Below are positions 1 to 64,000 of a stretch of 64,000 nucleotides of DNA, one piece after another. How positions within the stretch are numbered: position 1 is the first letter of the stretch; each line of letters begins with the position of its first letter. The position numbers and the translations under genes were made by a program. The notes under the pieces were generated by a model. That model was given only the letters and a program-made list of their open reading frames with translations. It was not told where the DNA came from and ran no database searches. The stretch lies in the NCBI RefSeq assembly GCF_963921235.1, contig NC_086097.1:12648001-12712000 (forward strand). Direction: 5' to 3'. Source of the DNA: Mobula hypostoma (Eukaryota).

Positions 1-217
1 CAAAGCAACACTCACAACATGCTGGAGGAACTCAGCAGGTCGGGCAGCATCCGTGGAAAGGATTGGTTGATGTTTTGGGCCGGAACCCTTTTTGATAGGG
101 CCTCTGCCCCTTCCCTCTACAGTCCTGATGAAGGGTTCTGGCCCGAAACGTCGACCGATCCTTTCCACAGATGCTGCCTGACTTGCTGAGTTCCTCCAGT
201 GTGTTGTGAGTGTTGCC
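1..217. mobile_element. Penelope-like element remnant: inverted pair of pseudo-LTR ends (cut by window start)
   Basis: 1-90 is the near reverse complement of 131-217; same family as 56679-57020; contains hammerhead core. Confidence 0.75.
120..157 (+). ncRNA. Minimal type I hammerhead ribozyme motif (intact core)
   Basis: cAGTC-CTGATGA(125-131)-A-GGGT tctg GCCC-GAAAC-GTC(150-152)-GACcg; stem I GTC/GAC, stem II GGGT/GCCC, palindromic ACGT stem III. Confidence 0.75.
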
Positions 218-639
218 AGGAGCACCTCACCCAGCCCTGTGCTGGAGTTCCTTTGTCCTGTCCAGCAGTCTCATGTCCAGTCCTGTAGTCTAGCCACATC
301 CAGTCCTCGCCTAGATCCAGGGTCCGAGCCCGAGTCAAGACCCAGGTTCCGGGTCCCTGTCCAGTTTCTGGCTTGGAGTCTCAAGGAGGGGGTCCTGGGT
401 TTGTGTGCTGTGTACAAGTCCTGGCCCTCCATCCTGCTCCTGAGGAGGGGTCCTTGTTCCTGGTTCCTCGTCTGGGTTCCTTGCTTCTAGCCCAGGCCCT
501 GAATCCTAGACTGGTCCCGGGCCTGTGTCAATGTCCAGCATCGTTCCTCCCCTTGCTTTCTTGACACACCAGTCCTGTTCCTAGTACTTCAGAGTCTGTG
601 TCTTGCATTTGGGTCCACTCCCAGTCCCTCCTTATGACA
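218..639 (+). mobile_element. Probable 3' part of an LTR-retrotransposon LTR
   Basis: Internally repetitive CCAGTCCT/GGGTCC units; ends ...GCATTTGGGTCC...ATGACA like fish Gypsy LTR ends; left end not seen. Confidence 0.35.
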
Positions 640-11769: not shown

Positions 11770-11945
11770 GTCCCACCTTCTTATTCTGACTTCTTCCCCT
11801 TTCCTTTTCAGTCCTGAAGAAGGGTCTCAGCCTAAAACATCAACTGTTTGTTCCTTCCCATCGATGCTGCCTGACCTGTTGAGTTTCTCCACCATTTTCT
11901 GTGTGTTGCTCTTGATTTCCAGCATCCGCAGAATCTCTGGTGTCC
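11770..11945 (+). mobile_element. Penelope pseudo-LTR with degenerate hammerhead
   Basis: CAGTCCTGAAGAAGGGTCTCAGCCTAAAACATCAACTG then GATGCTGCCTGACCTG. Confidence 0.7.
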
Positions 11946-12784: not shown

Positions 12785-13797
12785 AACCATAGAACCATAA
12801 AAACTACAGCACAGAAACAGGCCTTTTGGCCCTTCTTGGCTGTGCCGAACCATTTTCTGCCTAGTCCCACTGACCTGCACACGGACCATATCCCTCCATA
12901 CACCTCCCATCCATGTATCTGTCCAATTTATCCTTAAATGTTAAAAAAGAACCCGCATTTACCACCTCGTCTGGCAGCTCATTCCATACTCCCACCACTC
13001 TCTGTGTGAAGAAGCCCCCCCAATGTTCCCTTTAAACTTTTCCCCCCTCACCCTTAACCCATGTCCTCTGGTTTTTTTCTCCCCTTGCCTCAGTGGAAAA
13101 AGCCTGCTTGCATTCACTCTATCTATACCCATCATAATTTTATATACTTCTATCAAATCTCCCCTCATTCTTCTACGCTTCAGGGAATAAAGTCCTAACC
13201 TATTCAACCTTTCTCTGTAACTGAGTTTCTCAAGTCCCGGCAACAACCTTGTAAACCTTCTCTGCACTCTTTCAACCTTATTTATATCCTTCCTGTAATT
13301 TGGTGACCAAAACTGAACACGATACACCAGATTCAGCCTCACCAATGCCTTATACAACCTCATCATAACATTCCAGCTCTTATACTCAATACTTCGATTA
13401 ATAAAGGCCAATGTACCAAAAGCTCTCTTTACGACCCTATCTACCTGTGACGCCACTTTTAGGGAATTTTGTATCTGTATTCCCAGATCCCCCTGTTCCA
13501 CTGCACTCCTCAGTGCCTTATCATTAACCCTGTATGTTCTACCTTGGTTTGTCCTTCCAATGTGCAATACCTCACACTTGTCTGTATTAAACTCCATCTG
13601 CCATTTTTCAGCCCATTTTTCCAGCTGGTCCAAGTCCCTCTGCAGGCTCTGAAAACCTTCCTCACTGTCGACAACACCTCCAATCTTTGTATCATCAGCA
13701 AATTTGCTGATCCAGTTTACCACATTATCATCCAGATCATTGATATAGATGACAAATAACAATGGATCCAGCACTGATCCCTGTGGCACACCACTAG
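12785..13797 (-). mobile_element. 5'-truncated CR1-clade LINE (copy A)
   Basis: SGVPQGSVL...ISKFADDTKIGG...RGDLIEVYKIM in ORF 12959-13882; (AACCATAG)n tail. Confidence 0.92.
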
Positions 13798-13806
13798 GAG
13801 AGGGTA

Positions 13807-15716
13807 CATAGAAACATAGAAAATAGGTGCAGGAGTAGGCCATTCGGCCCTTCGAGCCTGCACCGCCATTTATTATGATCATGGCTGATCATCCAACTCA
13901 GAACCCCGCCCCAGCCTTCCCTCCATACCCCCTGACCCCCGTAGGCACAAAGGCCATATCTAACTCCCTCTTAAATATAGCCAATGAACTGGCCTCAACT
14001 GTTTCCTGTGGCAGAGAATTCCACAGATTCACCACTCTCTGTGTGAAGAAGTTTTTCCTAATCTCGGTCCTAAAAGGCTTCCCCTCTATCCTCAAACTGT
14101 GACCCCTCGTTCTGGACTTCTCCAACATCGGGAACAATCTTCCTGCATCTAGCCTGTCCAATCCCTTTAGGATCTTATACGTTTCAATCAGATCCCCCCT
14201 CAATCTTCTAAATTCCAACGAGTACAAGCCCAATTCATCCAGTCTTTCTTCATATGAAAGTCCTGCCATCCCAGGAATCAATCTGGTGAACCTTCTTTGT
14301 ACTCCCTCTATGGCAAAGATGTCTTTCCTCAGATTAGGGGACCAAAACTGCACACAATACTCCAGGTGTGGTCTCACCAAGGCCTTGTACAACTGCAGTA
14401 ATACCTCCTTGCTCCTGTACTTGAATCCTCTCGCTATAAATGCCAGCATACCATTCACCTTTTTCACCGCCTGCTGTACCTGCATGCCCACTTTCAATGA
14501 CTGGTGTATAATGACACCCAGGTCTCGTTGCACCTCCCCTTTTCCTAATCGGCCACCATTCAGATAATAATCTGTTTTCCTATTTTTGCCACCAAAGTGG
14601 ATAACTTCACATTTATCCACATTAAATTGCAACTGCCATGAATTTGCCCACTCACCCAACCTATCCAAGTCACCCTGCATCCTCTTAACATCCTCCTCAC
14701 TGCTAACACTGCCACCCAGCTTCGTGTCATCCGCAAACTTGGAGATGCTGCATTTAATTCCCTCACCCAAGTCATTAATATATATTGTAAACAACAGGGG
14801 TCCCAGCACTGAGCCTTGCGGTACCCCACTAGTCACCGCCTGCCATTCTGAAAAGGTCCCGTTTATTCCCACTCTTTGCTTCCTGTCTGCTAACCAATTC
14901 TCCACCCACACCAATACCTTACACCCAATACCGTGTGCTTTAAGTTTGCACACTAATCTCCTGTGTGGGACCTTGTCAAAAGCCTTTTGAAAATCCAAAT
15001 ATACCACATCCACTGGTTCTCCCCTATCCACTCTACTAGTTACATCCTCAAAAAATTCTATGAGATTCGTCAGACATGATTTTCCTTTCACAAATCCATG
15101 CTGACTTTGTCCGATGATTTCACCGCTTTCCAAATGTGCTGTTATCACATTCTTGATAACTGACTCCAGCAGTTTCCCCACCACCGACGTTAGGCTAACC
15201 GGTCTATAATTCCCCAGTTTCTCTCTCCCTCCTTTTTTAAAAAGTGGGGTTACATTAGCCACCCTCCAATCCTCAGGAACTAGTCCAGAATCTAACGAAT
15301 TTTGAAAAATTATCACTAATGCATCCACTATTTCTTGGGCTACTTCTTTAAGCACTCTAGGATGCAGACCATCTGGCCCTGGGGATTTATCTGCCTTTAA
15401 TCCCTTCAATTTACCTAACACCACTTCCCTACTAACATGTATTTCGCTCAGTTCCTCCATCTCACTGGACCCTCTGTCCCTTAATATTTCTGGAAGATTA
15501 TTTATGTCCTCCTTAGTGAAGACAGAACCAAAGTAATTATTCAATTGGTCTGCCATGTCCTTGCTCCCCATAATCAATTCACCTGTTTCTCTCTGCAGGG
15601 GATCAATCCTTTAAGTGTCATTTGCCGGTCTATCTTAGCTAATTCACGTCTCATACCTTCAAAGTTACCCCTCTTTAAGTTCAGAACGTTTGTTTCTGAA
15701 TTAACTGAATTAACTA
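13807..15716 (-). mobile_element. 5'-truncated CR1-clade LINE (copy B, young, internal deletion near 15602)
   Basis: Uninterrupted RT ORF, (CATAGAAA)n tail; 15603-15706 encodes upstream linker LNLKRGNFEGMRRELAKID. Confidence 0.93.
13898..15577 (-). CDS. CR1 LINE ORF2 fragment: reverse transcriptase plus C-terminus, endonuclease absent
   Basis: 559 aa, no stops: KSPGPDG, NYRPVSLTSVVGKLLE, YLDFQKAFDKVPH, GVPQGSVLGP, FADD. Confidence 0.92.
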   Translation of the reverse strand: MIMGSKDMADQLNNYFGSVFTKEDINNLPEILRDRGSSEMEELSEIHVSREVVLGKLKGLKADKSPGPDGLHPRVLKEVAQEIVDALVIIFQNSLDSGLVPEDWRVANVTPLFKKGGREKLGNYRPVSLTSVVGKLLESVIKNVITAHLESGEIIGQSQHGFVKGKSCLTNLIEFFEDVTSRVDRGEPVDVVYLDFQKAFDKVPHRRLVCKLKAHGIGCKVLVWVENWLADRKQRVGINGTFSEWQAVTSGVPQGSVLGPLLFTIYINDLGEGIKCSISKFADDTKLGGSVSSEEDVKRMQGDLDRLGEWANSWQLQFNVDKCEVIHFGGKNRKTDYYLNGGRLGKGEVQRDLGVIIHQSLKVGMQVQQAVKKVNGMLAFIARGFKYRSKEVLLQLYKALVRPHLEYCVQFWSPNLRKDIFAIEGVQRRFTRLIPGMAGLSYEERLDELGLYSLEFRRLRGDLIETYKILKGLDRLDAGRLFPMLEKSRTRGHSLRIEGKPFRTEIRKNFFTQRVVNLWNSLPQETVEASSLAIFKRELDMAFVPTGVRGYGGKAGAGF

Positions 15717-18509: not shown

Positions 18510-18985
18510 ATTCTGCAGATGTTGGAAATCCTGAGCGACACACACAAAATGCTGGACGATCTCAGCAAGTGAGGCAGCATCTGTGAAGAGGAATAGAGAA
18601 TCGAGACCCTTCATCAGGACTGGGAAGGGGGCAGAAACCAGAATCCAGTTTTGAAGGAGGAAGTGCACAGTATGCTTCATTGTACCCATTGCTCATGTTC
18701 ATTTCACTTGCAACGGCACATGTGGAGGAAGGGCCCACTGAGCATTCAACCAAATAACACAGCCAGGAGAGAGTCCTTTCACCACTGAACACAATTGCAA
18801 GCAGCATGGCATGACATAGCTTATATCAGTATATCTGGCTTTGGTCCTCTCCTTCCCATCCACTCACCTCCTTAATCTGCCTTCTCCCCCTTCCCCTTTA
18901 GTCTGAAACATTGAATACTTATTCCCCACCATGGATGCTGCCTGACCGGCTCAGTTCCTCCAGCATTTTGTGTGCATTGCTGGAA
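18510..18985. mobile_element. Two oppositely oriented Penelope pseudo-LTR fragments (18510-18650 -, 18830-18985 +)
   Basis: CTGCAGATGTTGG...GAGACCCTTCATCAGGACTGG and GATGCTGCCTGACC...CCTCCAGCATTTTGTGTG. Confidence 0.55.
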
Positions 18986-21827: not shown

Positions 21828-21990
21828 TAAACACCAGAGATTCTGCAAATGCTGGAATTCCAGAGTAACACACAGAAAATGCTGGAGGAACATAGCAGGT
21901 CAGGCAGCATCTATGGAATTGAACAAAATAGTTGACGTTTCAGGCCAAGACCCTTCTTCAGGACTGGAAAGGAAAGGGGAAGAACTGGCA
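21828..21990 (-). mobile_element. Penelope pseudo-LTR
   Basis: Same family motifs as 1-217. Confidence 0.7.
21930..21966 (-). ncRNA. Minimal hammerhead motif (core intact, stem I mismatch)
   Basis: Minus strand CAGTC-CTGAAGA-A-GGG tcttgg CCT-GAAAC-GTC-AACT. Confidence 0.6.
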
Positions 21991-22805: not shown

Positions 22806-23299
22806 TTATTTGGAAATACAATCTTGAATGTAGTGTCACAATGCACACAGAAAGCTGGAGGAACTCGGCAGCTCAGGCAGCACCTATGGAAAGGAATAAA
22901 CAGTCGACGATTCAGGCTGAGACCCTTCTTCACAGCTGAGTCCCTCCAGCATTTTGTAGGTGGGGATTTGCCTCATGTATTTAATCAGTGAGCTTCACTT
23001 CACTTCCTCCTTTCCTGATTAGGACCATTCGGAACATATTGCTGTCTAAGTTCTAAAACTGATCTTCGCTAACACTCTCATCCAAATTCAGGAAACATAG
23101 TACCACTGGAGGCCAATTATAGATAATTTTATCCTTTGCCAACAACAATCATTTATAGAGCTACTGCTGTGCTAGTAAATTCAAAGCAAAATTCTGTTTT
23201 AGGGCATTCATTTATAGCATTTTCTGTCAAATAAAAACTTCACTTATGACCCATTTACAACTTATATTATTGTAGATATGACATAGCACCTTCTTCACA

Positions 23300-25245: not shown

Positions 25246-25789
25246 ATAACACAGGCAGGGTGGGGTGTGCATTGCCACATTTTTGCTTCATTAGACAGTG
25301 ACACTTTATGCCAGTGACCAGAATTAAAATAATCTTCAGTTTTAATGGCTGATTTCCTTATCTGCTCAATGATATGTGTGAACTTACAATGCCATAGCTT
25401 CTGTCCCCGTGTTCTGCTTCTGTTTCCTGTAGCGCAGTGTGATTTACAAGATCATATTGTTCCTGTAACTAAGTTTTCGTCAAGTGTTTAATACGGAACA
25501 AATTTCCTGAAAATCTTCCAAATTTTAAACTTTTTTCATGAACACCCTACATACTGTGGAGATTAGCAACTCTGTGACACATAAATTGACTCTAAATGTA
25601 CATGGAAAATGCATATTGCTGATTGGAAACATGAGAAAATCAGCAGATGCTGGAAATCTAAGCGACACACACAAAATGCTGGAGGAACTCAGCAGGCGAA
25701 GGGTCTCGGAACAAAATATCAACTGTTTACTCTTTTCCACAGATGCTGCCGGGATTGCTGAGTTCCCTCAGCATTCTATGAGTGGTAGA

Positions 25790-27580
25790 CCATAAGACCA
25801 TAAGATGTAGGGGCAGAATTAAGCCATTTGGTCCATTGAGTCTGTTCCATCATTTTATCATGGCTGATCAATTTTCCCCTCAGCCCCAGTCTCCAGCCTT
25901 CTCCCTTTAGCCCTTCATGCCCTGACTAATCAATAATCTATCAACCATTGCCTTAAATATACCCAATGACTGGGCACAGCTCCCTGTGACAATAAATTCC
26001 ATAGATTACCATTCTCTGGCTAAAGAAATTCCTCCTCATCTCCATTCTAAAAGGATGTCCCTCTTTTGAGGCTGTGTCCTCTGGTCTTAGACTCTCCCAC
26101 CATAGGAAACATCCTGTCCACATCCACTCTATCAAGGCCTTTCACCATCTGATAGGTTTCAATGAGGTCACTCTTCATTATTCTGAATTCCAGTGAATAC
26201 AGGCTCAGAGCCATCGGACGCTCTTCCTATGACAAGCCATTCAATCTTGGAATCATTTTCATGAACCTCCTTTGAACCCTCTCCAATTTCAGCACATCCT
26301 TTCTACGATAAGTGGACCAAAACTGCTCACAATACTCCAAGCGAGGCCTTACCAGTGCTTTATAGAGTCTCAACATTATATTCTTGCTTTTACATTCTAG
26401 TCCTCTTGAAATGAATGCTAACATCGCATTTACCTTCCTCAACCCAGACTCGACCTGCAAATTAATCTTTAGGGAATCCTGTACAGGCACTTTCTCTCCA
26501 TTTGAGAATAGTCAGTCCTTTTATTCCTCCTATCAAAAAGCATGACCATACACTTGCTGACACTGTATTCCATCTGCCACTTCTTTGTCCATTCTCCTAA
26601 TCTGTCTAAGTCCTTCTGTAGCCTCTCCACTTCCTCAGAACTATCTGCCCCTCCACCTATCTTCATATTGCCTGCAAACTTTGCAACAAAGCTATCAATT
26701 CCATCATCCAAATCATTGACATATGACGTAAAAAGAATCGGTCCCAACACAAATCCTTGTGAAACATCACTAGTCACTGGCAGCCAACCAGAAGAGGCTT
26801 CCTTTACTGCCACTCTTTGTCTTCTGCCCGTCAGTCACTGCTTTATTCATGCTAGAATCTTCCTTGTAATACCAAGGGCTCATAGCCTGGTAAGCATCCT
26901 CATGTGTGGCACCTTGTCAAAGGCCTTCTGAAAATCCAAATAAACAACATAATCCAATTCTCCTTTGTCCATCCTGCTTGTTATTTCTTCAAAGAATTCC
27001 AACAGGCTTGTCAGGCAAGATTTTCCCTTGAGGAAACCATGCCGCCTACAGCCTGTTTCATGATGTGCCTCCGAGTACCCTGAAACCTTATCCTTAATAA
27101 ATGACTCCAACATCTTCCCAACAACTGAGATCAGACTAACTGGCCTATAATTTCCTTTCTTCTGCCTCACTCCATTCTTGAAGAGTGGAGTGATATTTGC
27201 AAATTTCCAGTCTTCCGGGACCATTTCAGAATCTAGTGATTCTTGAAAGATCATTACTAATGCCACCACAATCTCTTCAGTCACCTCTTTCAGAACCTTA
27301 GGTGTACACCATCTGGTCCAGGTGACTTATCTACGTTCAGACCTTTCAGTTTTCCTAGAACCTTCTCCCTAATAATGGTAATTTCAACAACTTCATGACA
27401 CCTGTCACCTGGACCTTCCACCATACTGCTAGTATCTTCCACAGTGAAGACTGAAGCAAAATACTTTTTCAGTTCAACCACCATTTCCTTGTTCCCCCAT
27501 TACTATCTTTCCAGCATCCTTTTCCAGTGGTCAGATATCCACTCTTGCCTCTTTTTTTACACTTTATGTATCTAAAGAAA
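25790..27580 (-). pseudogene. Frameshifted CR1 LINE RT and 3' end
   Basis: Consecutive ORFs 27290-27484, 26880-27284, 26469-26813, 26227-26490 with RT motifs; (CCATAAGA)n tail. Confidence 0.9.
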
Positions 27581-34479: not shown

Positions 34480-35040
34480 TGCTCCTCTGTGTCCCTTGAC
34501 TATACCTTCTTGATCCTCAACTTTGGTGCCGTGGTCTTTGGTCTCTGCCTATATGCTGGGAGTGGAAGTAGAGGGAGGTGATTGGACTTTCCAAAGTGTG
34601 GGCGTGGGATAGTACGGAAAGAACTCTTGATGCTGGTATAACTGTGTTCAATTGTGTCAGCTCCTCTCGTTCCACAGGTGATATGTTGGTAGTAGTTGTT
34701 CAGAGACTTTTTCAAACTGGCCTTGTTGATATCCCCAATGATAGGGAAAGCATCAGGGTGCGCAGTTTCGTGCCGGCTGATTATATTGCTCAGCTCCTCT
34801 GTAGCCTTCCTGACATTGGCCTGAGGTAGAATATACACTGCTACCAGGATTATGGTGGGAAACTCTCTCGGCAGATAAAATGGATGATATTTAACCACTG
34901 GATGTTCCGGGTCGGGTGAGCAGGACTGCCGCATTTGTGCACCGCGATGAGTTAATTAGAAATTACACTCCACCTCCCTGCCTTTAGAAGACTGAGCTTC
35001 CCTGTCTTTGCGGGAAATGGTGAAGCTGCAGCACTAAATC
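34480..35040 (-). pseudogene. Rex1/Babar LINE AP-endonuclease fragment
   Basis: ORF 34500-34934 CSPDPEH...PFYLPREF...VAVYILPQAN...IIGDIN...FGKSNH. Confidence 0.8.
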
Positions 35041-35610: not shown

Positions 35611-36217
35611 TGCTCATGTCCCACAGATCTCCATGCAAGGAAGGACAGCCCATCACCTCCAGCAGAAGGCAAGGTCACTTGAGCCAATTTCAATACACTG
35701 TAAAATGGAGCAGTTGTATAGAGTGGCCAGTCCATGCGTGTTTTCTACTTCTTTGAAGTTATTATGTTCCTTTACTGAGCTGAGAGTGTAAGAGTAGCAG
35801 TTGCTATAAATAGCAGCTACTTATTTCATAATTAAACTGAAACATTTTCGAAAGGGTGGTAATGTCACTGCAGGACAGAAAATGATTGCTTTGACAATAA
35901 GAATGCTTTTGCCACGATTTCCACTGGTCTCCTATTTTGTTAAAAGGTTTGTCACAGCAGGGATGGACTTATTTATGTCAAATTTCTGAGCAACATTTTA
36001 ACAATTCCTATCACACTTTAGTGCTGGCCAATCAGTATGTCCAATATATCGCACAAACAGATCATTCCTCCATATGGAGGTTGGATATGCACGTATTAGC
36101 TGCCATGTCATCACAGTGACAATATCTCAAAGCTGCCACATTGGTTGTGTCCAAACTTCTTCTACCAAAAGCTCACTTTGAGAAAGCGCTATAGGGCTAT
36201 TAAAATGAAAACTTCAT

Positions 36218-36596
36218 GCCATCTGGGTAGCCTCCAATCTGATGGCATGAACATCAATATTTCTAACTTCCAGTAATTTCTTCCCCTCCCACTTCCCTCT
36301 CTTTCCTTTCTCTATTCTGTCTTCCTCTTACCTAGTCTCTTCTCCTCACCTGCCTATCACCACTTCCTGACGCCCCTCCTCCTTCCCTTTCTCCCATAGT
36401 CCACTCTCCTCTCCTGTCAGATTCCTTCTTCTCCAGTGCTCTAACGTTTCCACCAGCTTCTCACTTCATCCGCCCTCCCCCAGCCACCTGGCTTCACCCA
36501 TCTCCATCTGGCTTGTACTCCTCGCTCCACCAACACCCCCACACACACTCTTATTCTGGCTTCTTCCCTTTCCTTCCCAGTCCTGATGAAGGGTTT
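36218..36596 (+). mobile_element. Penelope ORF end plus pseudo-LTR, truncated within the hammerhead
   Basis: HLGSLQSDGMNINISNFQ-stop, pyrimidine-rich UTR, CAGTCCTGATGAAGGG. Confidence 0.7.
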
Positions 36597-37969: not shown

Positions 37970-38800
37970 ACTAAAGATTCTGGAAATGCTGGAAATAGAG
38001 AGTAATATGTATAAAATGCTGGAAGAACTCAGCAAGTAAGCGGTGTCTCTGGAAAGGAATAAACAGATGATATTTCAGTCCAAATCCCTTCATCAGGACT
38101 GGAAAGCAAGGAGGAAAAAAAAACAGAATAAGAAGGTGGAGGAAGGGAAAGGAGTACAATCTAGGAAGTTTTAGGTGAAAAGTAAAGGGCAGGAGAAGAA
38201 GGAATCTGAAAGGAGATAAGAGTGGACCAAAAGATAAAGGGAGGGAGGAGGGGCACCAGGGCAGGTGAGGAAAAGAGACTAGGTAAAGATAGAGACGGAG
38301 TGGGGACTGGAAAATGAGGGAAGATGGAGGGGGAGAAAATACCACAAGTTGGAGAAGGTACAAGAACCTCAGGACTTGCACCATCAGATTCAAAAACAGT
38401 TCCTACCCCTCAACCATTAGGCACTTGAATAAAAGGAGATAACTACAGTCACTTGCCCCATCACTGACATGTTCGAACAGCCAATGAACTCACTGTAAGG
38501 ACTCTTTAACTCATGTTCTCGTTATTTATTACTATTTATTTATATTTATATTTACATTTGCACAGTTTGTTGTCTTCTGCACTCCAGTTAATCTTCCATT
38601 GATCTTGTTACAGTTAACATTCTATAGATTTGCCCACAAAAAAATGAATCTCAGGGTTGTACATGGTGACATATATGTATCTTGGTAATAAAACTTACTT
38701 TGAACTTTGAACATTGAAATTGGTGTTCATGCCATCGGGTTGGAGACTACCCAGACGGAATATCCTCCAACCTGAGAGTGGCCTCATTGTGGCAAGAGAG
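37970..38800 (-). mobile_element. Penelope pseudo-LTR and ORF end, split by a Rex1 3' end (38355-38712 +)
   Basis: CCCTTCATCAGGACTGG near 38085-38102; GTTCATGCCATCGGGTTGGAGACTACCCAGACGG near 38725. Confidence 0.65.
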
Positions 38801-40021: not shown

Positions 40022-41155
40022 CTCCCACATGGGAGGCTGATCAGAAAGGTTCAGTCGCTTGGCATACAGGTTGAGGTAATAAATTGGATTAGGCATTGGC
40101 TTTGTGGGAGAAACCAGAGTGGTTGTAGAAGATTACCTCTCTGACTGGAGGCCTGTGACTAGTGGTGTGCCACAGGGATCAGTGTTAAACCTTTTGCTGT
40201 TTGCCAACTATATCAATGATCTGGACGATAATGTGGTAACTGGATCAGCAAATGACGTCAAGATTGTGGGTGTAGTGGACAGTGAGGATGGCTATCATGG
40301 CTTGCAGAGGGATTTGCCTCAGCTGGAAAAATAGGTTGAAAAATGGCAGATGGAATTTAATTCAGATAAGTGGGAGGCTTTGCACTTCGGTAGGACCAAC
40401 CAGGCAGGTCTTACACAGTGAACGGTAGGGCACTGAGGAGTGTGGTAGAAAGAAGGGATCTGGGAATACAGGTCCATAATTCGTTGAAAGTGACATCACA
40501 GGTAGACAGGGTCGTAAAGAAAACTTTTGGCATATTGGCCTTTATAAATCAATATATTGAGTCCAGAAGATGGGATGTTATATTGAGACTGTATAGGACA
40601 TTGGTGAGGCCTAATTTGGAGTATTGTGTGCAGTTTTGGTCACCTACCTACAGGAAAGATGTAAACAAGGTTGAAAGAGTGCACAGAAAATTTACAAGGA
40701 TGTTGCCAGCACTGGAGGACCTGAGTTATAAGGAAAGATTGAATAGATTAGGATTGTATTCTTTAGAACATAGAGATTGAGAGGAGATTTGATAGATGTA
40801 TACAAAATGATGAGGGGTACGGATAGGGTTAATGCAAGCAGGCTTTTTCCACTGAGGTTTTGTGGGACTACAATCAGAAGTCATGGCTTAAGGGTGAAAG
40901 ATGAGAAGTTTAAGGGGAACATGAGAGGAAACTTCTCCATTCAGAGGGTCATGAGAGTGTGGAATGAGCTGCCAGCACAAGTGAGTCATGCGAGTTCGAT
41001 TTCAATGTGTAAAAGAAGTTTGGCTAAGTAAATGGATAGTAAGGATATGGATGCCTATGGTCCTGGTGAAGGTCGGTGTGAATAGGCAGTTTAAATTTTT
41101 TCAGTATCGACTAGATGGGCCAAAGGGCCTGTTTCTGTGCTGTACTTCTCTATGA
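40022..41155 (+). pseudogene. Frameshifted CR1 LINE RT and 3' end
   Basis: ORFs 40104-40334, 40418-40780, 40777-41031. Confidence 0.9.
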
Positions 41156-42800: not shown

Positions 42801-43369
42801 TAATTTACCAATGGAAGGAGATATTGTGTATACGAAAGAGATTAGTTTAGTTGGCCATTTGATTATAATTTAATTGGTTCAGCACAACTTTGTGGGCCGA
42901 AGGGCCTGTTCCTGTGCTGTACTGTTCTATGTTCTATATTCTGAAGTTATTTCTACCCATTCACGCTTATACAGCCATGGGAATTAACCACTTAGCATCT
43001 ACCTTATTAAATCCTTTCGGCATCCTTTATATTTCAATGAGATTGCCTCTCACTCTTCCAAGCTCCAGGACTGGAAACCCATTCTGCTAAATATTTTTCC
43101 CACTGGACAACCCTTTAATCTCTGGAATCAATCAAGAAAATCTCTGTTGAACTGCCTCCAAGGCGAGTATATCTTTACTGCTATAAGTAGACAAAAAAAC
43201 AATATATGAACCTCCAGCTGAGAATTGTGTGAAAACCAACAGAGGAAAAGAATGAAAGACATTGGTGCAAAGAGAAACCCTGCTGAATTGTTAAAAAAAA
43301 AAGTGTAGGATATAGGGACAAAGGGAAGGTGAAAAGGTTGAGGTCCTGGAAAGCATTAAGAGAAAGGTC

Positions 43370-43990
43370 CAATACATACAGAATGCTGGAGGACGTCACC
43401 AGGTTCGGCAGCATTTATAGAGGGAAACAAACTGTTGATATTTTGGGCAAAACCCTCAATCGGTTCTGGAAAGGAAGGGAGCTGAAGCTAGGATAAAAAG
43501 CGGGGGGTGGGGAGGAGTATAAGATGGCAGGCAATAAGGTGAGAGGGAAGTAGGTGGCATGAAAGGGAATGGTGTGATAAGCCAGGAAGTGATAGGTGGG
43601 AGAGGTAAAGGGCCTAAGACTAAATCTGGCAGGAGAGAACAGTACACCATGGAATAAAGAGAAGGAGGTGAGGAAACAGAAGAAGGTGATGGACAGATCA
43701 TGAGGGCAGGGCAGCTGGAGAGGTGAGAGTGCCATCAGAATGAGGGAGAACAAATTGCGCGGGGGCAGAAGGGAGTGGTTACTAGAAGTTAAAGAAATTG
43801 ATGCCCATGCCACCAAGTTAGAGACTATCCAGATGGAGTATGAGGTGTAGATCCTTCAGCCCGTGTCTGGCCTCATTGTGGCAGTAGAGGAGGGCATGGA
43901 CAGACATATTGGTGTGGGAATGGGAAATGGAATTGAAATGGTTGGCCACTGGGAGATCCTGTCTGCTGGGATGGAAGGTGCTCGACAAGG
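43370..43990 (-). mobile_element. Degraded Penelope 3' end
   Basis: Purine-rich pseudo-LTR and GIY-YIG-end motifs as in 61235-62295. Confidence 0.6.
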
Positions 43991-44177
43991 ACAGTCAATA
44001 TAGAGAGCTAGACATGCAAGAGACTGCAGACGGTGGAACCAGGACTCACAAACAATTTGCTGGTCAATGTTTAGGGTGAAAACCCAACATCGGGACTAGA
44101 AGTTTGTTTTTTCATATACTGGCATAAGCAATTGGGCAAGTAATCTGTTGATTCCACAGCCTCCTTTTAATGAATAT

Positions 44178-44570
44178 AAAATGCTGGAGGAATTCAGCAG
44201 GTCACATCACATCTGTGGAAAGGAATAAAGTGTCGACATTTCGAGACCCTTCATCAGGATTGGAAAGAAGGTAAGATTTAAACTTCTTCAAATAATTCTC
44301 TCATTGACGAGAGTTCAGTGAGACCTTTTTTCGCTACTCTCCTCTGTTATCTCTTTGACCATGTGCTCACCTATCACTTTCTAACTTGCATTCCTTCCCC
44401 CTCCACCACCTTCTCATTCTGCCTTCTTCCCACTTCCTTTTCAGTCCTGATGAAGGGTGTCGACATGTTGAGTCTTTACTCCTTTCTGTTGATGCTGCCT
44501 GACAAAGCTGAGTTCCACATGCATTGTACGTATTTTACTCTGGGTTTTCACCATCTGCTGAATCTCTTAT
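44178..44570. mobile_element. Inverted pair of Penelope pseudo-LTR ends
   Basis: CCCTTCATCAGGA near 44247 (-) and CAGTCCTGATGAAGGG near 44442 (+). Confidence 0.6.
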
Positions 44571-52300: not shown

Positions 52301-52742
52301 CAGTTACTTTGAATAAACTTAAGGTGGGTAAGAAGTATGTTTCACTCTGTTTTGTCCTGAGGGTGAAATGATATAAGAAAATGATCAATTTTACAATAAC
52401 AGAATCTTTTCTGAGCGCCTGTGGATTTCAACTCTTTAGGACAATATTCTGCATCATGTGCTCAGAAGGTAAAGTTAATTTTCCTCACCAATGTAATTAT
52501 TAGGAACAACTTGATTTTCTTACATACAAGCTTTCATTTTTGTTGAAATAAGAACTAGGGTAAACAGTTTACATAAGAACATAAGAAATCACAGCAGAAG
52601 GTCAGAGGGCCTTTCGAGCCTGCTCCACGATTCAATAAGACCACGGTTGAATTGACCATAGACTCAGCTCCACCTACCTACCTTTTCCCCATACCTTTAA
52701 TTCCCATGCTAGGCAAAAATCTATCTGTGTCTCAAACATACA

Positions 52743-52782
52743 CTCAGTGGCCACTTTAATAGATATACCAGTACACCTGCTT
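52743..52782 (+). mobile_element. Isolated Tc1-like TIR
   Basis: CTCAGTGGCCACTTTAATAGATATACC matches reverse of 28575-28614. Confidence 0.55.
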
Positions 52783-53644: not shown

Positions 53645-53907
53645 ATCCGGCTGGTGGCGTAGTGGCATCAGCATCGGACTTCGGGACAAAAGGTCCCAGG
53701 TTCGAATCCAGCCAGCCGGCTCCCAGCACGCTTTCCATCCGTGCTGGGTTACAAGCTGGTGATCTCTTTGGAAATTCACCCGGCAGCAGGCAATGACAAA
53801 CCACTGCTGTAACTTGCCTCGTACGCAATTCCCCACTACGTCAGAGAGGCATGGAGGGAAATGATCTGCTAACCGGAGAAACTCCGGATGCGATGTACCT
53901 ACCTATC
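53645..53907 (+). mobile_element. Full-length tRNA-derived SINE with RTE-like core
   Basis: A box 53655-53665, B box GGTTCGAATCC 53699-53709, (TACC)n tail, TSD TACAGTTA(C/T)TTT. Confidence 0.75.
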
Positions 53908-56678
53908 TACAGTTATTTTCTACGGACAGAGTACCTGCTACATGCAGAGTTTATTTGCAAAGCTTCTCTACTGTCTGTACTTTAGACAAAAATCTCCTAC
54001 AGTACCCATAATGACCACATACTTCATCTTTACCCTTCACCTTTACCTTTATGCTGCTTCACCTTTACTCTTCAAGGAGAGGTCTGATACAACTTCTTAT
54101 TAATATATGATGTATTCAATTTGCAGCATTAATTAAATGCTTCATGTGAGTAAGAATTAACATGTTAACATGTTTCAACAGGGTAGAAATGCACGTTACA
54201 TCCTTAGTAAAGAATTAAGCCTTTGATCCCTAATAATAAATGTATGTACTTCTATCAGTCACTGGTTAATATTCTACTCCACTGTAGAAAATAGACTCGA
54301 AATACGTAGTTGCGTTTTACAAGTGAACAATGCACTCATGTATTTCACACTAAAAAAAAACAAACATTAATCTCTTTGCTTTGATTTCAAACAGTTTATT
54401 TTTAGAAGGTGCTTACATTATTAAACTTCACCCCCGCCCCCCTCCAAAGTGTTAGGAGGAAAAATTTGAAACCAGGTCAGGCTGATCAGAAGTTTGCATT
54501 CAATCCAGGCAGGCAGGATGGCTGTGTACCCAGGTTCCAGCTCAAGATATATTGAATAGAATAGAATAAAATAGATCTTCATTGTCTTTGCTCAAGAGAA
54601 TGAGATTGTGGTGATTTTACATTCCGTGTAAAATATATATTCACCATGCATACATAATTATAAATTATAAGAAAATATTAATTATAAATTGAAGGATTCT
54701 TTGATCATCTATAGAGGCTTCCTAACATGTACAATGAGGACTTGTATCTGGCTTTGCCAGAACCCAATGTGTAGAAGATCTGTGGCCATAGGTAGTGCTA
54801 AAATCTGAAACACAACTCACCCCTCCTTCAACCATGTGTTTTAAAATGAACCAAGTTGTTTAGAGCTCACCGGAACTCCCCAAATCAGCTTCTCAGCTTG
54901 CAGCTTCATGAATATCTCAGAATGACAACAAGCCTAAAGCCTTGGTTGCATCTTGAGTCTCTTTGCTATTGTTTGGATCCTTCCAATTTCTTGAATGAAG
55001 CATAACTAATGGAAAGACGAAAGGAAGATAACTAGACATTGTCCATTGTGCTGCAATGCAAATGGACCACTTTTCACTTTTGTTAATCCCTGGCAATTGA
55101 CAATGCATACATATAGACATTGAAACCTCAAACAAAGACAATATGAAGTAAAATATATATTAAATATATCTTGTATTATAAATGCAAGAGATTCTACAGA
55201 TGCTGGAAATCCAGAATCACACACAAAAAGTGCTAAAGGAATTCAGCAGGTGAGGCAGCATGAATGGAGAGGAATAGTCGACTTTTTGGGTGAGGCACTT
55301 CATCATGTTGTATTCCATCATTGTGGAAATAGAAATAGAAAACGCTCAAGAAGAGAATGGAAGAACTACTTTGAGAACAATTGTTTATTGATTTAATACT
55401 TAAAACATAGCCATATCATTCAGAAGCATAAAATCATTAAGGTAAAATATAAATTATAGTCAATGTACATTTAGCTATTCCTATCTTTCCTAATAGCGTA
55501 GAATGCCATTCGATCCATTGAGTCTGTGCCAGTTCTCGAAGCAGAGTATCAATCCCAGTATTCCTCTTAATTCCTTGCGACTTAGTCTCTCTCATGAGCC
55601 CATCAATTCCACCCTGATTTTCCCACCACACATAACTAATTAACTTAACGTCCTGCATATCTTTCGAGTGTGGGAGAAAAACCAGATCACCCAGATGAAA
55701 CCCAGGTGGTCACATGGAAAATGTGCAAATTCCACACAGGCAGTATCAATGGTCAGGATGAGAGTTGCTTGAGCTGGAAGGCAAACATACTACTGACTGC
55801 ATCAGTATATTCTCAATTACTGAAACCCTTAAATACCCAACTATTTCAGTAACTGGAGTCTTAAAGGAGAGTTTCCATGCAATGCAGAGTAATAGTCATA
55901 AAGCACTGCACCACAGATCAGACCCTTTGGCCAATCTAATCCATGCTGAATTATTATTCTGCCTAGTCCCATCGATGCACACTCGGACCACAGCCCTCCA
56001 TAACCCTCCATCCATATATGTATCCAAATTTCTGTGAAAGTAAAAGAATTGAAAGATGGGTGGAGATAAAAGATTAATGCTTACTGTTCTGTAGAACTCT
56101 GCTGGTAGTCAAATCTCTTCTCTCCAAAATCTCCTGTAGTGAAGCAGAATAATTTTTTGGGTTAAAAATTGAAAGCTGGCATAACACTGATGAGATTAAT
56201 TTGGTGTTGCAGTCTTCCAAATGGTTCCCCATCCCATTTACTACATTCAGAGCCACAACAAAACATTTCCATGAAATGGAGCTGAACATCTCAGAGAGAA
56301 ATTTGACAACCACGCTGGGTTCTTTTTCCCTACTAGTGCCTGTGATTTTCAGAAAGCAGAGCATATTTTTAAAAGATCATTCTTAAAGCAGGCAGCTTGC
56401 CTTAGGAGTCAAATCCCCCATGGTAGCTGTTCAGGCAATTAAATAGTCAAATAAATTGATTAGGTTTCTGCTATTTCTTTATTAGTAGAGTATAAGTCAA
56501 CATAATTAAAGACTCCATCCACCTCGGATATTCTCTTTTCTCCTTCTTCCCATCAGACAGGAGATTTAAAAGCCCGAAAGCATGTACTACCAGGCTAAAG
56601 GACAACTTCTATAACATTTCAATAAAACTATTGAATGGTACCGTTTTACAATGGGATGGACTCTTGACCTTGCAGTCA

Positions 56679-57020
56679 TAAACACAAAATAATCTGCAGA
56701 TGCTGGGGTCAAAGCAACACTCACAACACGCTGGAGGAACTCAGCAGGTCAGGCAACATCCGTGGAAAAGATTGGTCGAAGTTTCTGGCCGGAACCCTTC
56801 GTCAGGACTGTAGAGAGAAGGGACAGAGGCCCTATAAAGAAGGTTGGGGGAGGGTGGGAAGGAGAAGGCTGGTAGGTTCCAGGTGAAAAACCTACCAACC
56901 TTCTCCTTCCCACCTTCCCCCCACCTTCTTTATAGGGTCTCTGCCCTTCCCTCTACAGTCCTGACGAAGGGTTCCAGCCCGAAACGTCGACCGATCTTTT
57001 CCACGGATGCTGCCTGACCT
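56679..57020. mobile_element. Compact inverted Penelope pseudo-LTR pair inside a Rex1-type 3' end
   Basis: ~56745-56885 and ~56890-57020 are reverse complements; 14-bp direct repeat TGACCTTGCAGTCA at 56665-56678 and 57015-57028. Confidence 0.8.
56956..56993 (+). ncRNA. Minimal type I hammerhead ribozyme motif (intact core)
   Basis: cAGTC-CTGACGA(56961-56967)-A-GGGT tcca GCCC-GAAAC-GTC(56986-56988)-GACcg. Confidence 0.75.
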
Positions 57021-57427
57021 TGCAGTCAACTTTGTTATGGAATCACACGTATGGTTTGCATGCACTGCATTTTCTGTAACTGCAACACCATGTTCTGCAT
57101 TCTGTTATTGCTTTTCGCTTGTACTTTCATAAGGTATTATGTGATGAAATAGATCTGTATGGCATGCAAAACAAAACTCTTCACTATAGCTCAGTGATAA
57201 TAATAAACCAATTTATCATTGCAATGAATTCAAAGAAGCAAAAAGAGCCCTATGTAATGCATATGGAACTGTGTGGCATCACAACTAGGAACTGGGCAAT
57301 GAACTTCAGATGGCTAAACGACCTCATTTATTGGCAAGCACTGATAATCTATTGGGAAATGATATGAAGTTATTCGAAGTATTAGTGCACATGGGAAATG
57401 GGGTCTTCTAATGCACTAGATCTACAG

Positions 57428-61193: not shown

Positions 61194-61234
61194 TTGCTCA
61201 CTGTGTTTTCAGGCATTCAGGCTTAGAGATATCA

Positions 61235-62295
61235 GACCACAAGAAAATCTGCAGATGCTGGAAATCTGAAACAACACACACAAAATGCTGGAGGAACTCA
61301 ACAGGCCAGGCAGCATCAATTGAAAAGTGTTTCACGCTGAGACCCTTCATTGGGACTGAAAAGGAAGGGAAGAAGTCAGGGTAAGGAATTTGGGGGGTAG
61401 GAGAAGAAGTAGTACAAGATGGCAGGTGATAGGTGAAAGTGCAAGAGGGGGAGAAGGTGAAATAAAGAGCTAGGAAGTCGATCAGTGGAAGAGATAATTG
61501 GGCTTGAGAAGAGGGAATCTAATAGGACAGGACTGAAGACCATGGAAGAAAGGGAAGGGGACAGAGCACCAGAAAGAGGTGATGGCAGGTAAAGAGGCAA
61601 TTTACTGCAAACACGAGAAACTGATGTTCACACCATCAGGTTGGAGGCCATCCTGACGGAATACAAGGTGTTCTCCTCCAACCTGAGTGTGGCCTCATCC
61701 CAGAGGAGGCCACGGACTGACATGTCAGAATGGTAATGGGAAGTAGAATTGAAATGGTGGCCAGTGAGAAATCCTGCTTTTTGTGGCGGATGGAGTGAAG
61801 GTACTTGACATACAGGAGGCAACGCCACAAGCACCGGATACAGTAAATGACCACCAACAGAATCGCAGGTGAGGTATCGCCTCACTTGAAAGCACTGTTT
61901 GGGGCCCTGAATGGTAGTGAGGGAGGTGGTGGAGGGGGCAGGTGTGGCACTCATTCCACTTGCAAGGGTAAGTATCAGATGGGAGATCAGTTGGGTTGGA
62001 TGAGTGGACAAGGGATTCATGTACGGTGCGATGTCTGTGGAAAGTGGAAAGTGGAAAGTGGGGGATCGGGAAAGGTGTGTTTGGTGGTGGGATCCCGTTG
62101 GAGATGGCATAGGTTGCAAAGAGTTACTGGCTGGATGTGAAGGCTGGTGGGGTGGTTGGTGAGGACATGATAAATCCTGTCCCTGATTTGGTAGCGGTTG
62201 GATGCAGTGAGGGTAGATTTGCACGAAAGAAGAGATGCAGGTGAGCGCAGTGTTGCTGGTGGAGGAAGGGAAGCCCTTTTCTTTGAAGAAGGAAG
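61235..62295 (-). pseudogene. Penelope element 3' half: RT-thumb/linker, GIY-YIG endonuclease remnant and pseudo-LTR
   Basis: SFFKEKGFPSST; TTIQGPKQCFQVRRYLTCDS; VIYCIRC...HSIRHK; HHFNSTSHYHSDMSV...EATLRLEE. Confidence 0.8.
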
Positions 62296-62299
62296 TTTT

Positions 62300-63420
62300 T
62301 CATTCCATAATCAATTCCTCTGTCTTTGTTGTATCTGCTCTCAGGACGAAGCTTTTCATTCCAGAACGGAAATAGTCTATCTCCCGATATCTTTTGAACC
62401 CACCGACTCCCACAGCTATGAGGGCTATACTCTTCTCAACCTGTCGCTTGTAAAAATACCGTTCCCTTCTCAAACACGAGGAAATCTGCAGATGCTGGAA
62501 ATTCAAGCAACACACATAAAAGTTGCTGGTGAACGCAGCAGGCCAGGCAGCATCTCTAGGAAGAGGTACTGTCGACGTTTTGGGCCGAGACCCTTCGTCA
62601 GGACTAACTGAAAGAAGAGCTAGTAAGAGATTTGAAAGTGGGAGTGGGAGGGAGAGATCCAAAATAATAGGAGAAGACAGGAGGGGGAGGGATGGAGCCA
62701 AGAGCTGGACAGGTGATTGGCAAAAGGGATATGAGAGGATCATGAGACAGGAGGCCTAGGGAGAAAGAAAAGGTGGGGGGAGGGGAAGCCCAGAGGATAG
62801 GCAAGGGGTATAGTGAGAGGGACAGAGGGAGAAAAAGGGGAGAGAGAAAAAGAATGTGTGTATATAAATAAATAACAGATGGGGTAGCCTTCAACCTGAT
62901 GGCATGAACATTGACTTCTCAAACTTCCGCTAATGCCCCACCTCCCCCTCGTACCCCATCCGTTATTTATTTCTAAATACACATTCTTTTTCTCTCAGTC
63001 CTTTTTCTCCTTCTGTCGCTCTCACTATACCCCTTGCCCATCCTCTGGGTTTTCCCCCCCTCCCCCTTTTCTTTCTCCCTGGGCCTCCTGTCCCATGATC
63101 CTCTCATATCCCTTTTGCCAATCACCTGTTCAGCTCTTGGCTCCATCCCTCCCCCTCATGTCCTCTCCTATCATTTTGGATCTCCCCCTCCCCCTCCCAC
63201 TTTCAAATCTTTTACTAGCTCTTCTTTCAGTTAGTCCTGGCGAAGGGTCTTGGCCGGCAACGTTGACTGTACCTCTTCCTAGAGATGCTGCCCGGCCTGC
63301 TGCGTTCACCAGCAACTTTTATGTGTGTTGCTTACCATTCCCTTTTCTCACTTCCTCATTCTCTGCCGCATCTGCTTTCAGGATGCTGCTTTTCATTCCA
63401 GAACTAATGAGATGTCCTCC
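62300..63420 (+). pseudogene. Inverted, duplicated Penelope RT-thumb fragments (62300-62471 and 63334-63420) flanking an insertion
   Basis: QFLCLCCICSQDEAFHSRT, EPTDSHSY, and IPFSHFLILCRICFQDAAFHSRTNEMSS. Confidence 0.65.
62472..63333. mobile_element. Penelope insertion: inverted pseudo-LTR, ORF tail, pseudo-LTR
   Basis: ~62503-62885 is the reverse complement of ~62952-63333; spacer encodes SLQPDGMNIDFSNFR-stop. Confidence 0.85.
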
Positions 63421-63441: not shown

Positions 63442-64000
63442 CAAACACGAGAAAATCTACCGATGCTGGAAGTCAAAACAATGCACACAAAATTCTGGAG
63501 GAGCTTAGCAGGCCAGGCAGCATCTTTTGAAAAGAGTAAACAGTTGACATTTTGGACCTGTACTTTTCATCAGGACTGGAAATAAAAGATGAGAAGTCAG
63601 AACAAAAAGGTGGGGATAAGGGGAAGAAGTTTTATAAGTTAGTAGGTGATAGGAGAAACTGGGAGAGAGGGAGGATTGAAGTAAAGAGCTGGGAAGTCAA
63701 TTGGTGAAAGAGATAAAGGCTGGAGAAGGCGGGAATCTAATAGGACAGGATAGAAGACCATGAAAGAAACGGAAGAGGGAGGAGTGCCAGAGGGAGGTGA
63801 TAGGCAGGTAAGGAGATAAGTGAGAGAGAGAAATGGGAATAGGGAATGGTGAAGGAGAGGATGGGGCAATTAACTGAAGTTTGAGATATTGATGTTTATG
63901 CCATCAAGTTGGAGTCTATCCAGATGGAATACCTTCATTCTGTCTGCCATAAAAAACGAGATTTCTCAGTGGCCACCAATTTCAATTCTACTTCCTATTC
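63442..64000 (-). mobile_element. Penelope pseudo-LTR and ORF end (last ~60 bp inverted)
   Basis: TTCATCAGGACTGG near 63566-63579; GATGTTTATGCCATCAAGTTGGAG near 63890. Confidence 0.7.

What the first reader, a model, noticed from the sequence alone, without database searches (positions are those of the whole stretch)
120..157. Dispersed family of minimal hammerhead ribozyme motifs on both strands
Seen: the motif CAGTC-CTGANGA-A-GGG-loop-CCC-GAAAC-GTC-GAC recurs across the window. The core is intact at 120-157 (+), 56956-56993 (+) and 21930-21966 (-). It is degenerate or truncated near 11809 (+), 18603 (-), 22900 (-), 36578 (+), 38066 (-), 44232 (-), 44442 (+), 56775 (-), 61330 (-), 62570 (-), 63232 (+) and 63541 (-). 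Stem III is only the loopless palindrome ACGT, which cannot fold within one motif. Known: Penelope-like retroelements carry minimal type I hammerheads in their pseudo-LTRs, thought to cleave as dimers. Inference: over a dozen remnants per 64 kb implies a very large genome-wide load, and intact copies inside a host transcript could pair through ACGU and cleave after GUC (152, 56988).
Basis: partly seen in the sequence, partly recalled or inferred. Interest (0 to 1): 0.72.

Follow-up and report, generated by a model that had tools for sequence, protein, structure and literature searches.

The report
Penelope hammerhead leftovers, copied uncut
The scattered motifs are real but are the end pieces of a very abundant Penelope-type jumping gene carrying an already described kind of tiny self-cutting RNA motif; the copies decay like neutral DNA and their left ends pile up at the motif's first bases rather than at its cut site, so they were likely copied from uncut RNA and likely do nothing to host transcripts.

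Summary
Observation confirmed. All 15 listed sites belong to one repeat (22 copies in the window). Only 120-157 and 56956-56993 pass a minimal-hammerhead descriptor (0 in 20 shuffles); 21930 has a broken pair at the cut site. The motif lies in the pseudo-LTR of a Penelope-like retroelement (RT plus GIY-YIG, Neptune-like linker). Copies with open frames and a motif in both pLTRs exist elsewhere in the genome. Load: 59,673 exact-core motifs, about 640,000 remnants. This is the known PLE minimal hammerhead. The host-cleavage inference is not supported: no host gene was found, both intact copies are predicted to be buried in hairpins with their own inverted arms, and the core decays no slower than its flanks (6.4% vs 5.2%, p=0.31). 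Extra result: copy 5' ends peak 31 nt before the cut site, at the start of stem I (2,200 of 72,069; repeated in a second lineage), about ten times the rate at the cut site, and 3' ends fall at two tail sites. Short copies were therefore likely made from uncut RNA that begins at the motif. This scan reported the same family and the same 5'-end pattern before in other shark or ray genomes.

The parts
120..157 (+). Minimal type I hammerhead motif, complete core, G10.1-C11.1, weakened stem I (GACCG); predicted cut after 152; lineage B
1..228 (.). Single Penelope insertion: inverted arm (2-91, -, continues 31 nt left of the window) plus forward arm (about 104-215, +); right copy of a 13-nt target-site duplication at 216-228
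56956..56993 (+). Minimal hammerhead motif, complete core, weakened stem I; predicted cut after 56988; lineage B
56665..57028 (.). Single Penelope insertion: inverted arm with the damaged motif near 56775 (-) and tail, forward arm with the 56956 motif; 14-nt exact target-site duplication (56665-56678, 57015-57028)
21860..21979 (-). pLTR remnant; motif 21966-21929 has core letters but a C-A mismatch beside the cut site (not intact); older lineage D
61238..62329 (-). Broken 3' part of a Penelope-like ORF (RT thumb, Cys linker, GIY-YIG region) followed by its pLTR with the degenerate motif near 61330
   Evidence: tblastn E 2e-21
62471..63334 (.). Inverted pair of lineage A pLTRs (motif near 62570 on -, near 63232 on +), both motifs damaged; ORF end at 62877-62930 (+)
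63442..64000 (-). ORF end plus pLTR with degenerate motif near 63541
43369..43964 (-).
   Evidence: E 3e-16
36200..36595 (+). ORF end plus pLTR cut off inside the motif (36578)
38002..38106 (-). pLTR remnant, degenerate motif (38066)
11796..11912 (+). pLTR remnant, degenerate motif (11809)
18530..18625 (-). pLTR remnant, motif with internal deletion (18603)
22838..22933 (-). pLTR remnant starting at the motif's 5' edge (22900)
25657..25787 (.).
44174..44270 (-). pLTR remnant, degenerate motif (44232)
44431..44538 (+). pLTR remnant, degenerate motif (44442)

Best explanation
The motifs are the minimal type I hammerhead in the pseudo-LTR of an abundant Penelope-like retroelement, and the window's copies are truncated, neutrally decaying insertions that were likely reverse-transcribed from RNA not cut by the ribozyme and are likely inert. 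Steps: (shown) the motif sits about 280 nt behind the stop codon of an RT/GIY-YIG frame and in both pLTRs of full-length elements; (shown) copies end at one of two tail sites, about 68 and 103 nt after the cut site, and many begin at or near the G 31 nt before it; (inferred) reverse transcription starts at a tail site and, when it uses the tail near the RNA's 5' end, runs off at the start of stem I, giving 100-140-nt inserts, often with a fold-back inverted arm; (inferred) the ribozyme, if active, cuts only in the parent element's RNA as a dimer or with the element's protein, and cutting is not needed for insertion.
For: Window ORF remnants lead into the motif on the same strand. Of 7 long-frame loci fetched, 5 have 1043-1064-codon open frames, and L125, L126, L127 carry the motif in both direct pLTRs, 3.5 kb apart; Pfam RVT_1 and GIY-YIG hits, both under cut-off; closest named relatives are from rays and sharks. 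Inverted arms, target-site duplications and two 3'-end clusters (+60..+76 and +95..+111) match the PLE tail signature (PMC8557442, PMC11167929). 5' ends: 23 of 58 sample copies with a mapped end lie in -41..-21, 1.1 per nt against 0.02-0.23 in the other multi-nucleotide bins; genome-wide 10,090 of 72,069 lose the upstream sequence in -41..-27 and 2,200 exactly at -31, against 1,739 of 101,693 in -9..0 and 1,893 in +1..+10; about 16 of the first 100 listed sit at the cut site (hand count). In lineage B, 25 of the first 100 listed of 786 are at -31, the modal position (hand count). Of 30 loci at -31, 14 are solo inserts of 99-137 nt, 16 have an inverted arm, 0 have other element sequence joined in direct orientation, 22 have a duplication candidate of 11 nt or more. 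Copy-level decay: core 46/718 vs linker and free sites 68/1297, p=0.31; vs 3' flank 191/3115, p=0.80. Between lineages A, B and D the core differs at 0 of 12 sites while linker and upstream differ at about 40-50%. The anole Poseidon hammerhead needs protein to cut and is dispensable for insertion in vitro (PMC11167929).
Against: No cleavage, transcription start or RNA end was measured; only assembled contigs were available. What makes the -31 end is not shown: about 30% of lineage A -31 junctions share a 3-nt microhomology with the inverted arm (hand count). The between-lineage comparison undid CpG decay only in the motif, the polypyrimidine flank is indel-prone, and the 3' flank is also fairly conserved (1-11 of 45-47), so core conservation need not mean catalysis. 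No two-sided stem change was seen. Of the 5 full-frame loci, 3 reach 250-520 nt upstream of the motif and 2 begin inside or after it; none begins at -31. In 2 of 16 inverted loci the inverted arm stops exactly at the cut site (L251, L252), so some cut templates are possible.
Confidence: 0.85

Rival explanations
1. Intact dispersed copies inside host transcripts dimerise through ACGU and cut the host RNA.
For: About 60,000 motifs keep a complete core; element sequence is present in three runs guessed to be RNA; contigs of one such run cover unique sequence at 51855-55005, 2 kb from the 56956 copy. Dimeric and trimeric constructs of a Schistosoma minimal hammerhead show low activity (PMC4209133).
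Against: Both intact window copies are predicted buried in fold-back hairpins and have weakened stem I; the isolated monomer's best fold pairs core bases 5-8 with CGUC, and the GUCGAC palindrome across the cut site gives a competing duplex; no copy-level selection; no host exon found.
Confidence: 0.04
2. Hammerhead cleavage at both pLTRs, and possibly circularisation, makes the normal template, as proposed for PLEs and retrozymes.
For: Full elements carry two motifs in tandem orientation; the model is proposed in PMC4209133; a few junctions lie at the cut site.
Against: Junctions at the cut site are about 0.3% of copies against 3.1% at -31 and are no commoner than at -3. A religated circle would restore the motif and predicts no 5'-end peak at -31. 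No head-to-tail motif array among the window's 21 hits.
Confidence: 0.07
3. The motif is no longer a working ribozyme even in the parent element and is kept for another role, such as promoter, splice-acceptor or protein-binding sequence at the RNA's 5' end.
For: The lineage with open frames has G10.1-U11.1 in place of the conserved G-C (46,382 vs 13,291 exact copies); an older lineage carried A6C (727 exact copies; 6 of 11), a change reported to lower activity (PMC3088659); a polypyrimidine tract ending in YAG abuts stem I in all four lineages. Naiad PLEs proliferate without canonical hammerheads (PMC8557442).
Against: All 12 core sites are the same in lineages A, B and D; both variants are ones expected to leave some activity (A6C by PMC3088659; G-U by my own knowledge); protein-assisted cutting is shown for the anole element (PMC11167929). 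Not exclusive of the best explanation.
Confidence: 0.25
4. The -31 peak is not the RNA's 5' end but a block to reverse transcription or a junction artefact, for example proteins bound at the splice-acceptor-like polypyrimidine-AG, or microhomology with the inverted arm.
For: The peak coincides with the AG of the acceptor-like site; about 30 of 100 listed lineage A junctions at -31 have a GTC microhomology (hand count); in D. virilis Penelope the intron ends at helix I and the start site is 46+75 nt further up (PMC4209133, PMC2377424).
Against: 14 of 30 loci are solo inserts with no inverted arm; lineage B peaks at -31 without that fold-back class; no shared upstream exon; no GT..AG joint among the joints shown (202 not shown, inconclusive).
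Confidence: 0.3

Closest known systems
Minimal hammerheads (min-HHR) in pLTRs of metazoan Penelope-like elements (Cervera and De la Pena 2014, PMC4209133; parts 1-2 of 4 of the text read)
   Same: Type I, no helix III, palindromic 15.2-16.2, one unpaired base between 9 and 10.1, 4-5 bp helix I, in both pLTRs, mostly dispersed single copies and inverted pairs 100-700 bp apart.
   Different: About 60,000 exact-core motifs against about 4,000 (coelacanth) and 9,000 (Xenopus), by different descriptors; helix II is 4 bp; the youngest lineage has G10.1-U11.1; low diversity (one family); sharks and rays are not named in the parts read.
Anole Poseidon element PAc (Frangieh et al. 2024, PMC11167929; parts 1-2 of 4 read)
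   Same: Hammerhead at the pLTR-ORF junction; two reverse-transcription start sites that define a 30-40-nt tail; uncut RNA is the main substrate.
   Different: Here the frame's first ATG lies 140 nt after the cut site, not inside the motif, and the protein has the CX4CX2C linker that Poseidon lacks. The pile-up of 5' ends at stem I is not described in the parts read.
Neptune clade of EN+ PLEs (Craig et al. 2021, PMC8557442; passages read)
   Same: RT, then CX2-5CxxC linker, then C-terminal GIY-YIG with Cys/His motif; partial tandems, inverted 5'-truncated copies, tail.
   Different: Clade not fixed by a tree; Nematis also has the linker.
Non-LTR retrozymes (Li et al., bioRxiv 10.64898/2026.07.22.740005; part 1 of 5 and passages read)
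   Same: Non-coding PLE-derived sequence with a type I hammerhead; one chondrichthyan sampled and positive.
   Different: Defined as tandem arrays with at least two consecutive motif-bearing units; the window's copies are dispersed solo or inverted inserts.

Membership tests
PLE minimal hammerhead (min-HHR) | Core CUGANGA, GAAA, UH with helices I and II | tested here: met
   2 window copies and 20 in 1.4 Mb pass the descriptor; controls 0 and 1
PLE minimal hammerhead (min-HHR) | Unpaired base between 9 and 10.1; palindromic 15.2-16.2, no loop 3 | tested here: met
   A insertion and ACGU in the motif
PLE minimal hammerhead (min-HHR) | G10.1-C11.1 pair | tested here: inconclusive
   Met at 120 and 56956 and in 13,291 exact copies; G-U in 46,382 and in the open-frame lineage
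PLE minimal hammerhead (min-HHR) | Located in the pLTRs flanking an RT-endonuclease ORF | tested here: met
   L125, L126, L127; window remnants
PLE minimal hammerhead (min-HHR) | Compensatory changes in the stems | tested here: not met
   0 of 9 pairs with a two-sided change in 21 aligned copies; lineages are close, so power is low; the source paper gives covariation as support across families, not as a requirement for one family
PLE minimal hammerhead (min-HHR) | Self-cleavage as a dimer or with protein | not testable with these tools
   Secondary-structure energies disfavour the fold but omit core tertiary contacts and protein
Rfam hammerhead families | Score at a family's gathering threshold | tested here: not met
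   0 matches in the window; none at E<=10 for 95-200
Penelope-like element, EN+ | Single ORF with RT and C-terminal GIY-YIG | tested here: met
   RVT_1 E 6e-05 and GIY-YIG E 6e-04, both under curated cut-offs; relatives carry PF00078, PF01541, PF26215, PF28514
Penelope-like element, EN+ | Partial-tandem pLTR, adjacent inverted truncated copy, 30-40-nt tail | tested here: met
Neptune clade | CX2-5CxxC linker between RT and EN | tested here: met
   CX4CX2C before the endonuclease
Neptune clade | RT phylogeny with reference Neptune elements | not tested
   No labelled reference elements were on hand
Non-LTR retrozyme | Tandem array with two or more consecutive motif-bearing units | tested here: not met
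   None among the 21 window hits; not searched genome-wide

The most novel reading that the evidence does not exclude
The element's RNA begins at the first bases of the hammerhead (the G matching window 122), and internal reverse-transcription starts 68 or 103 nt past the cut site run off at that end, mass-producing 100-140-nt hammerhead mini-inserts from uncut RNA. That explains why minimal hammerheads litter animal genomes as single copies, and, with proliferating lineages that carry G10.1-U11.1 or A6C, it is a genomic record that cleavage is not needed for Penelope transposition in vivo.
Probability: 0.5. Interest if true: 0.5.

Novelty: new member of a known kind. Interest (0 to 1): 0.3.

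Why it matters
The motif class and its link to Penelope elements have been in print since 2014, so the finding as written is ordinary. What a specialist could use is the scale: tens of thousands of young copies allow the ends of past insertions to be mapped to the base. They show two 3' start sites and a 5' peak at the motif's first bases, with no clear peak at the cut site. This bears on the open question of what PLE hammerheads do, agrees with the one in vitro study, and predicts where the RNA's 5' end should be found.

Tried and rejected
Rfam: nothing at gathering score, one chance miRNA match at E 5.9. Pfam on broken ORF pieces: no family for the two window frames or L005 and L009, one weak unrelated hit for L012; only full-length frames hit. 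Host gene: 149 of 192 unique frames of 62 aa or more (68 of 69 in the window, 81 of 123 in the neighbouring 130 kb) scanned with Pfam gave only two retroelement hits in L137; short exons would be missed. Sequencing runs: no RNA holder listed on record; contigs of runs guessed to be RNA cannot show ends, strand or level. Splicing onto the AG before stem I: no GT..AG joint among 15 shown, 202 not shown, and no shared upstream exon in 30 loci; unresolved. First conservation test had a faulty anchor filter for the old lineages and was redone (237 flank-detected copies, 61 unassigned and 98 lacking the upstream anchor dropped, 78 used). Cap copying: G precedes the -31 G in 32 of 100 and 14 of 25, hand counts, a hint confounded by microhomology. 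Retrozyme reading rejected for the window (no tandem units). Luense et al. on dimer cleavage is not held; I saw only its citation in PMC6765202. No protein fold, complex or tree was run. No paper's supplements were read; those of PMC4209133 list further species and might include a shark or ray.

Full report
Observation. The motif is in the sequence as described at 120-157 (+) and 56956-56993 (+), with the predicted cuts after 152 and 56988. A descriptor for a minimal type I hammerhead (CUGANGA, optional extra base, helix II of 3 bp or more, GAA, palindromic A..U, H, helix I of 3 bp or more) finds these two and nothing else in the window, and nothing in 20 shuffles. Both have GACCG after the cut, so helix I is 3 bp, a mismatch and 1 bp. 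The third 'intact' copy, 21966-21929 (-), has a C-A mismatch next to the cut and fails. Rfam has no match.

Identity. Upstream of several remnants, on the same strand, the window translates to the end of a Penelope-type protein; tblastn with a full-length relative hits 62329-61614, 43964-43785, 62877-62930 and 38859-38713. A protein search of the own genome returned 143 scored matches of 221,000 candidates, several in frames of 1043-1064 codons. Of 7 such loci fetched, 5 have these long frames; L125, L126 and L127 have the motif in both direct repeats, 3.5 kb apart, L123 and L124 have a 5' repeat cut inside or after the motif, and L123 and L125 have long inverted arms. Pfam gives RVT_1 and GIY-YIG, both below cut-off. 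The linker is CX4CX2C, the mark of Neptune and Nematis in PMC8557442 (passages read). The closest named relatives are from rays and sharks at 68-95% identity. The two intact window motifs are each one arm of a single inverted insertion with a 13-nt and a 14-nt target-site duplication.

Load. Exact 34-letter patterns match 13,291 times with G10.1-C11.1 and 46,382 times with G10.1-U11.1, reversed controls 0. In 140 evenly spaced 10-kb samples there are 257 remnants (about 638,000 genome-wide) and 20 descriptor-passing motifs (about 50,000; 30,000-77,000), controls 0 and 1. The window (21 in 64 kb) is somewhat denser than the average.

Selection. Copies were detected by the flank 3' of the motif only, sorted into four lineages by flank text, and kept if the upstream pyrimidine tract was present (78 of 237). 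At non-CpG, non-diagnostic sites the core differs from its lineage majority at 46 of 718 cells, linker and free sites at 68 of 1297 (p=0.31), the 3' flank at 191 of 3115 (p=0.80); CpG sites decay at 12-29% by class. So inserted copies are not under selection for the core. Between lineages A, B and D the 12 core sites are identical, the rest of the motif differs at 3-4 of 26, and linker and upstream at about 40-50%, which suggests constraint in the copying lineages; caveats are that CpG decay was undone only in the motif and that the 3' flank is fairly conserved too. No pair shows a two-sided change. Two lineage-level departures exist: G10.1-U11.1 in the lineage with open frames and A6C in part of an older one (6 of 11; 727 exact copies). 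PMC3088659 (passages read) reports low activity for A6C.

Folding. For isolated motifs the best monomer fold is a long hairpin in which core bases 5-8 pair with CGUC; the hammerhead dimer fold is -10.5 kcal/mol for both window copies against -23.9 and -27.7 for the best dimers, and -19.9 against -33.9 for an undamaged copy. In their context both window motifs are predicted 80% and 92% paired outside the motif, helix II probability 0.0. These energies omit tertiary contacts and proteins. No host exon was found (weak test). Contigs of a run guessed to be RNA from a related organism cover 51855-55005; strand and nature are unknown.

Ends of copies (0 = first base after the cut). 3' ends of young copies fall in two clusters, +60..+76 and +95..+111, the tail that PMC11167929 (parts 1-2 read) ties to two reverse-transcription start sites. 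5' ends in the unselected sample (1.59 Mb): of 68 alignments, 5 ran past the reference and 5 touched a sample edge; 23 of the other 58 lie in -41..-21 (1.1 per nt), 4 in -20..-1, 1 at 0, 8 in +1..+35, 22 further upstream. Genome-wide I asked for an exact element word preceded, beyond a gap, by three non-element letters: 10,090 of 72,069 for junctions in -41..-27, 1,739 of 101,693 for -9..0, 1,893 for +1..+10 (denominator not measured). All are undercounts by a similar factor and include some small deletions. By hand, the first 100 peak at -31 (28), then -32 (14) and -33 (11); the exact count at -31 is 2,200. In one search about 16 of 100 are at 0 and about 24 at -3, so the cut site is not singled out: about 0.3% of copies against 3.1%. 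Lineage B, to which the two intact window copies belong, also peaks at -31 (25 of 100 listed). Thirty -31 loci are 14 solo inserts of 99-137 nt and 16 inverted pairs; none has a shared upstream exon.

Mechanism. Shown: location in the pLTR, neutral decay, the positions of the ends. Inferred: templates were uncut; the RNA likely begins at or near -31; reverse transcription from the tail near that end yields mini-inserts, and fold-back yields inverted pairs. The cause of the -31 end is open. A start site is the simplest reading, but a pyrimidine tract ending in AG abuts it in all four lineages, like the intron end at helix I in D. virilis Penelope (PMC4209133; PMC2377424, passages read), so a protein block or processing is a live rival, and about 30% of lineage A junctions have a microhomology. 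Whether the ribozyme cuts in the parent RNA is untested; the literature points to low dimer activity (PMC4209133; review PMC6765202, passages read) or protein-assisted cutting that is dispensable for insertion (PMC11167929).

Novelty. The motif class is known. Six literature searches showed no paper on this family in sharks or rays or on the 5'-end peak; the library lacks most subscription papers and one key paper was not held, PMC6155905 (passages read) adds nothing on it, and a 2026 preprint reports retrozymes in one chondrichthyan. This scan's own notes report the same family, and the same 5'-end pattern, in other shark or ray genomes; I saw them after my counts for lineage A were done, and they are not independent support. 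Verdict: new member of a known kind, interest 0.3.

Noticed in passing
window 103-122 (+) and the same place in all lineages: A pyrimidine tract ending in CAG or TAG, with a branch-point-like word about 15-25 nt upstream, abuts stem I: it looks like a 3' splice site. No spliced form was seen.
   Followed up: partly
window 12959-15610 (-); also 26469-27326 (-), 40394-40780 (+), 59498-59935 (+): Reverse-transcriptase remnants of a LINE; RVT_1 E 7e-34 and 1e-11 for the first two frames. CR1-like by my recall, not by a call.
   Followed up: partly
window 60517-61197 (-): 226-codon frame with a weak zf-RVT hit (E 0.02), probably the end of another LINE family.
   Followed up: partly
window 34500-34955 (-): 151-codon frame resembling a LINE endonuclease region by recall; no Pfam hit.
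   Followed up: partly
window 51855-55005: Mostly unique sequence covered by five contigs (depth 9-35) of run X9, guessed RNA of a related organism, and at 52014-52355 by low-depth contigs of X19 and X21. Possible transcript; no coding hit.
   Followed up: no
G000, 727 exact matches: An older lineage with A6C in the catalytic core.
   Followed up: partly
L127 3560-3685: The stretch after the cut site folds into three hairpins; the two 3'-end clusters fall at the end of the second and inside the third. Candidate reverse-transcription start structure.
   Followed up: partly
L128 2936-9123: Two long arms of the element head to head, 2.9 kb at 98.7% identity, with open frames of 974 and 850 codons.
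   Followed up: no
L251, L252: Two separate loci with the same junction, where the inverted arm stops exactly at the predicted cut site.
   Followed up: no
L137 822-1497 (-): RT and RNase H-like pieces of an LTR-type retroelement about 11 kb right of the window.
   Followed up: no
P0015, P0029: Database proteins named as host-gene isoforms that are largely this element's ORF (77% and 87% identity): annotation artefact or exonisation.
   Followed up: no
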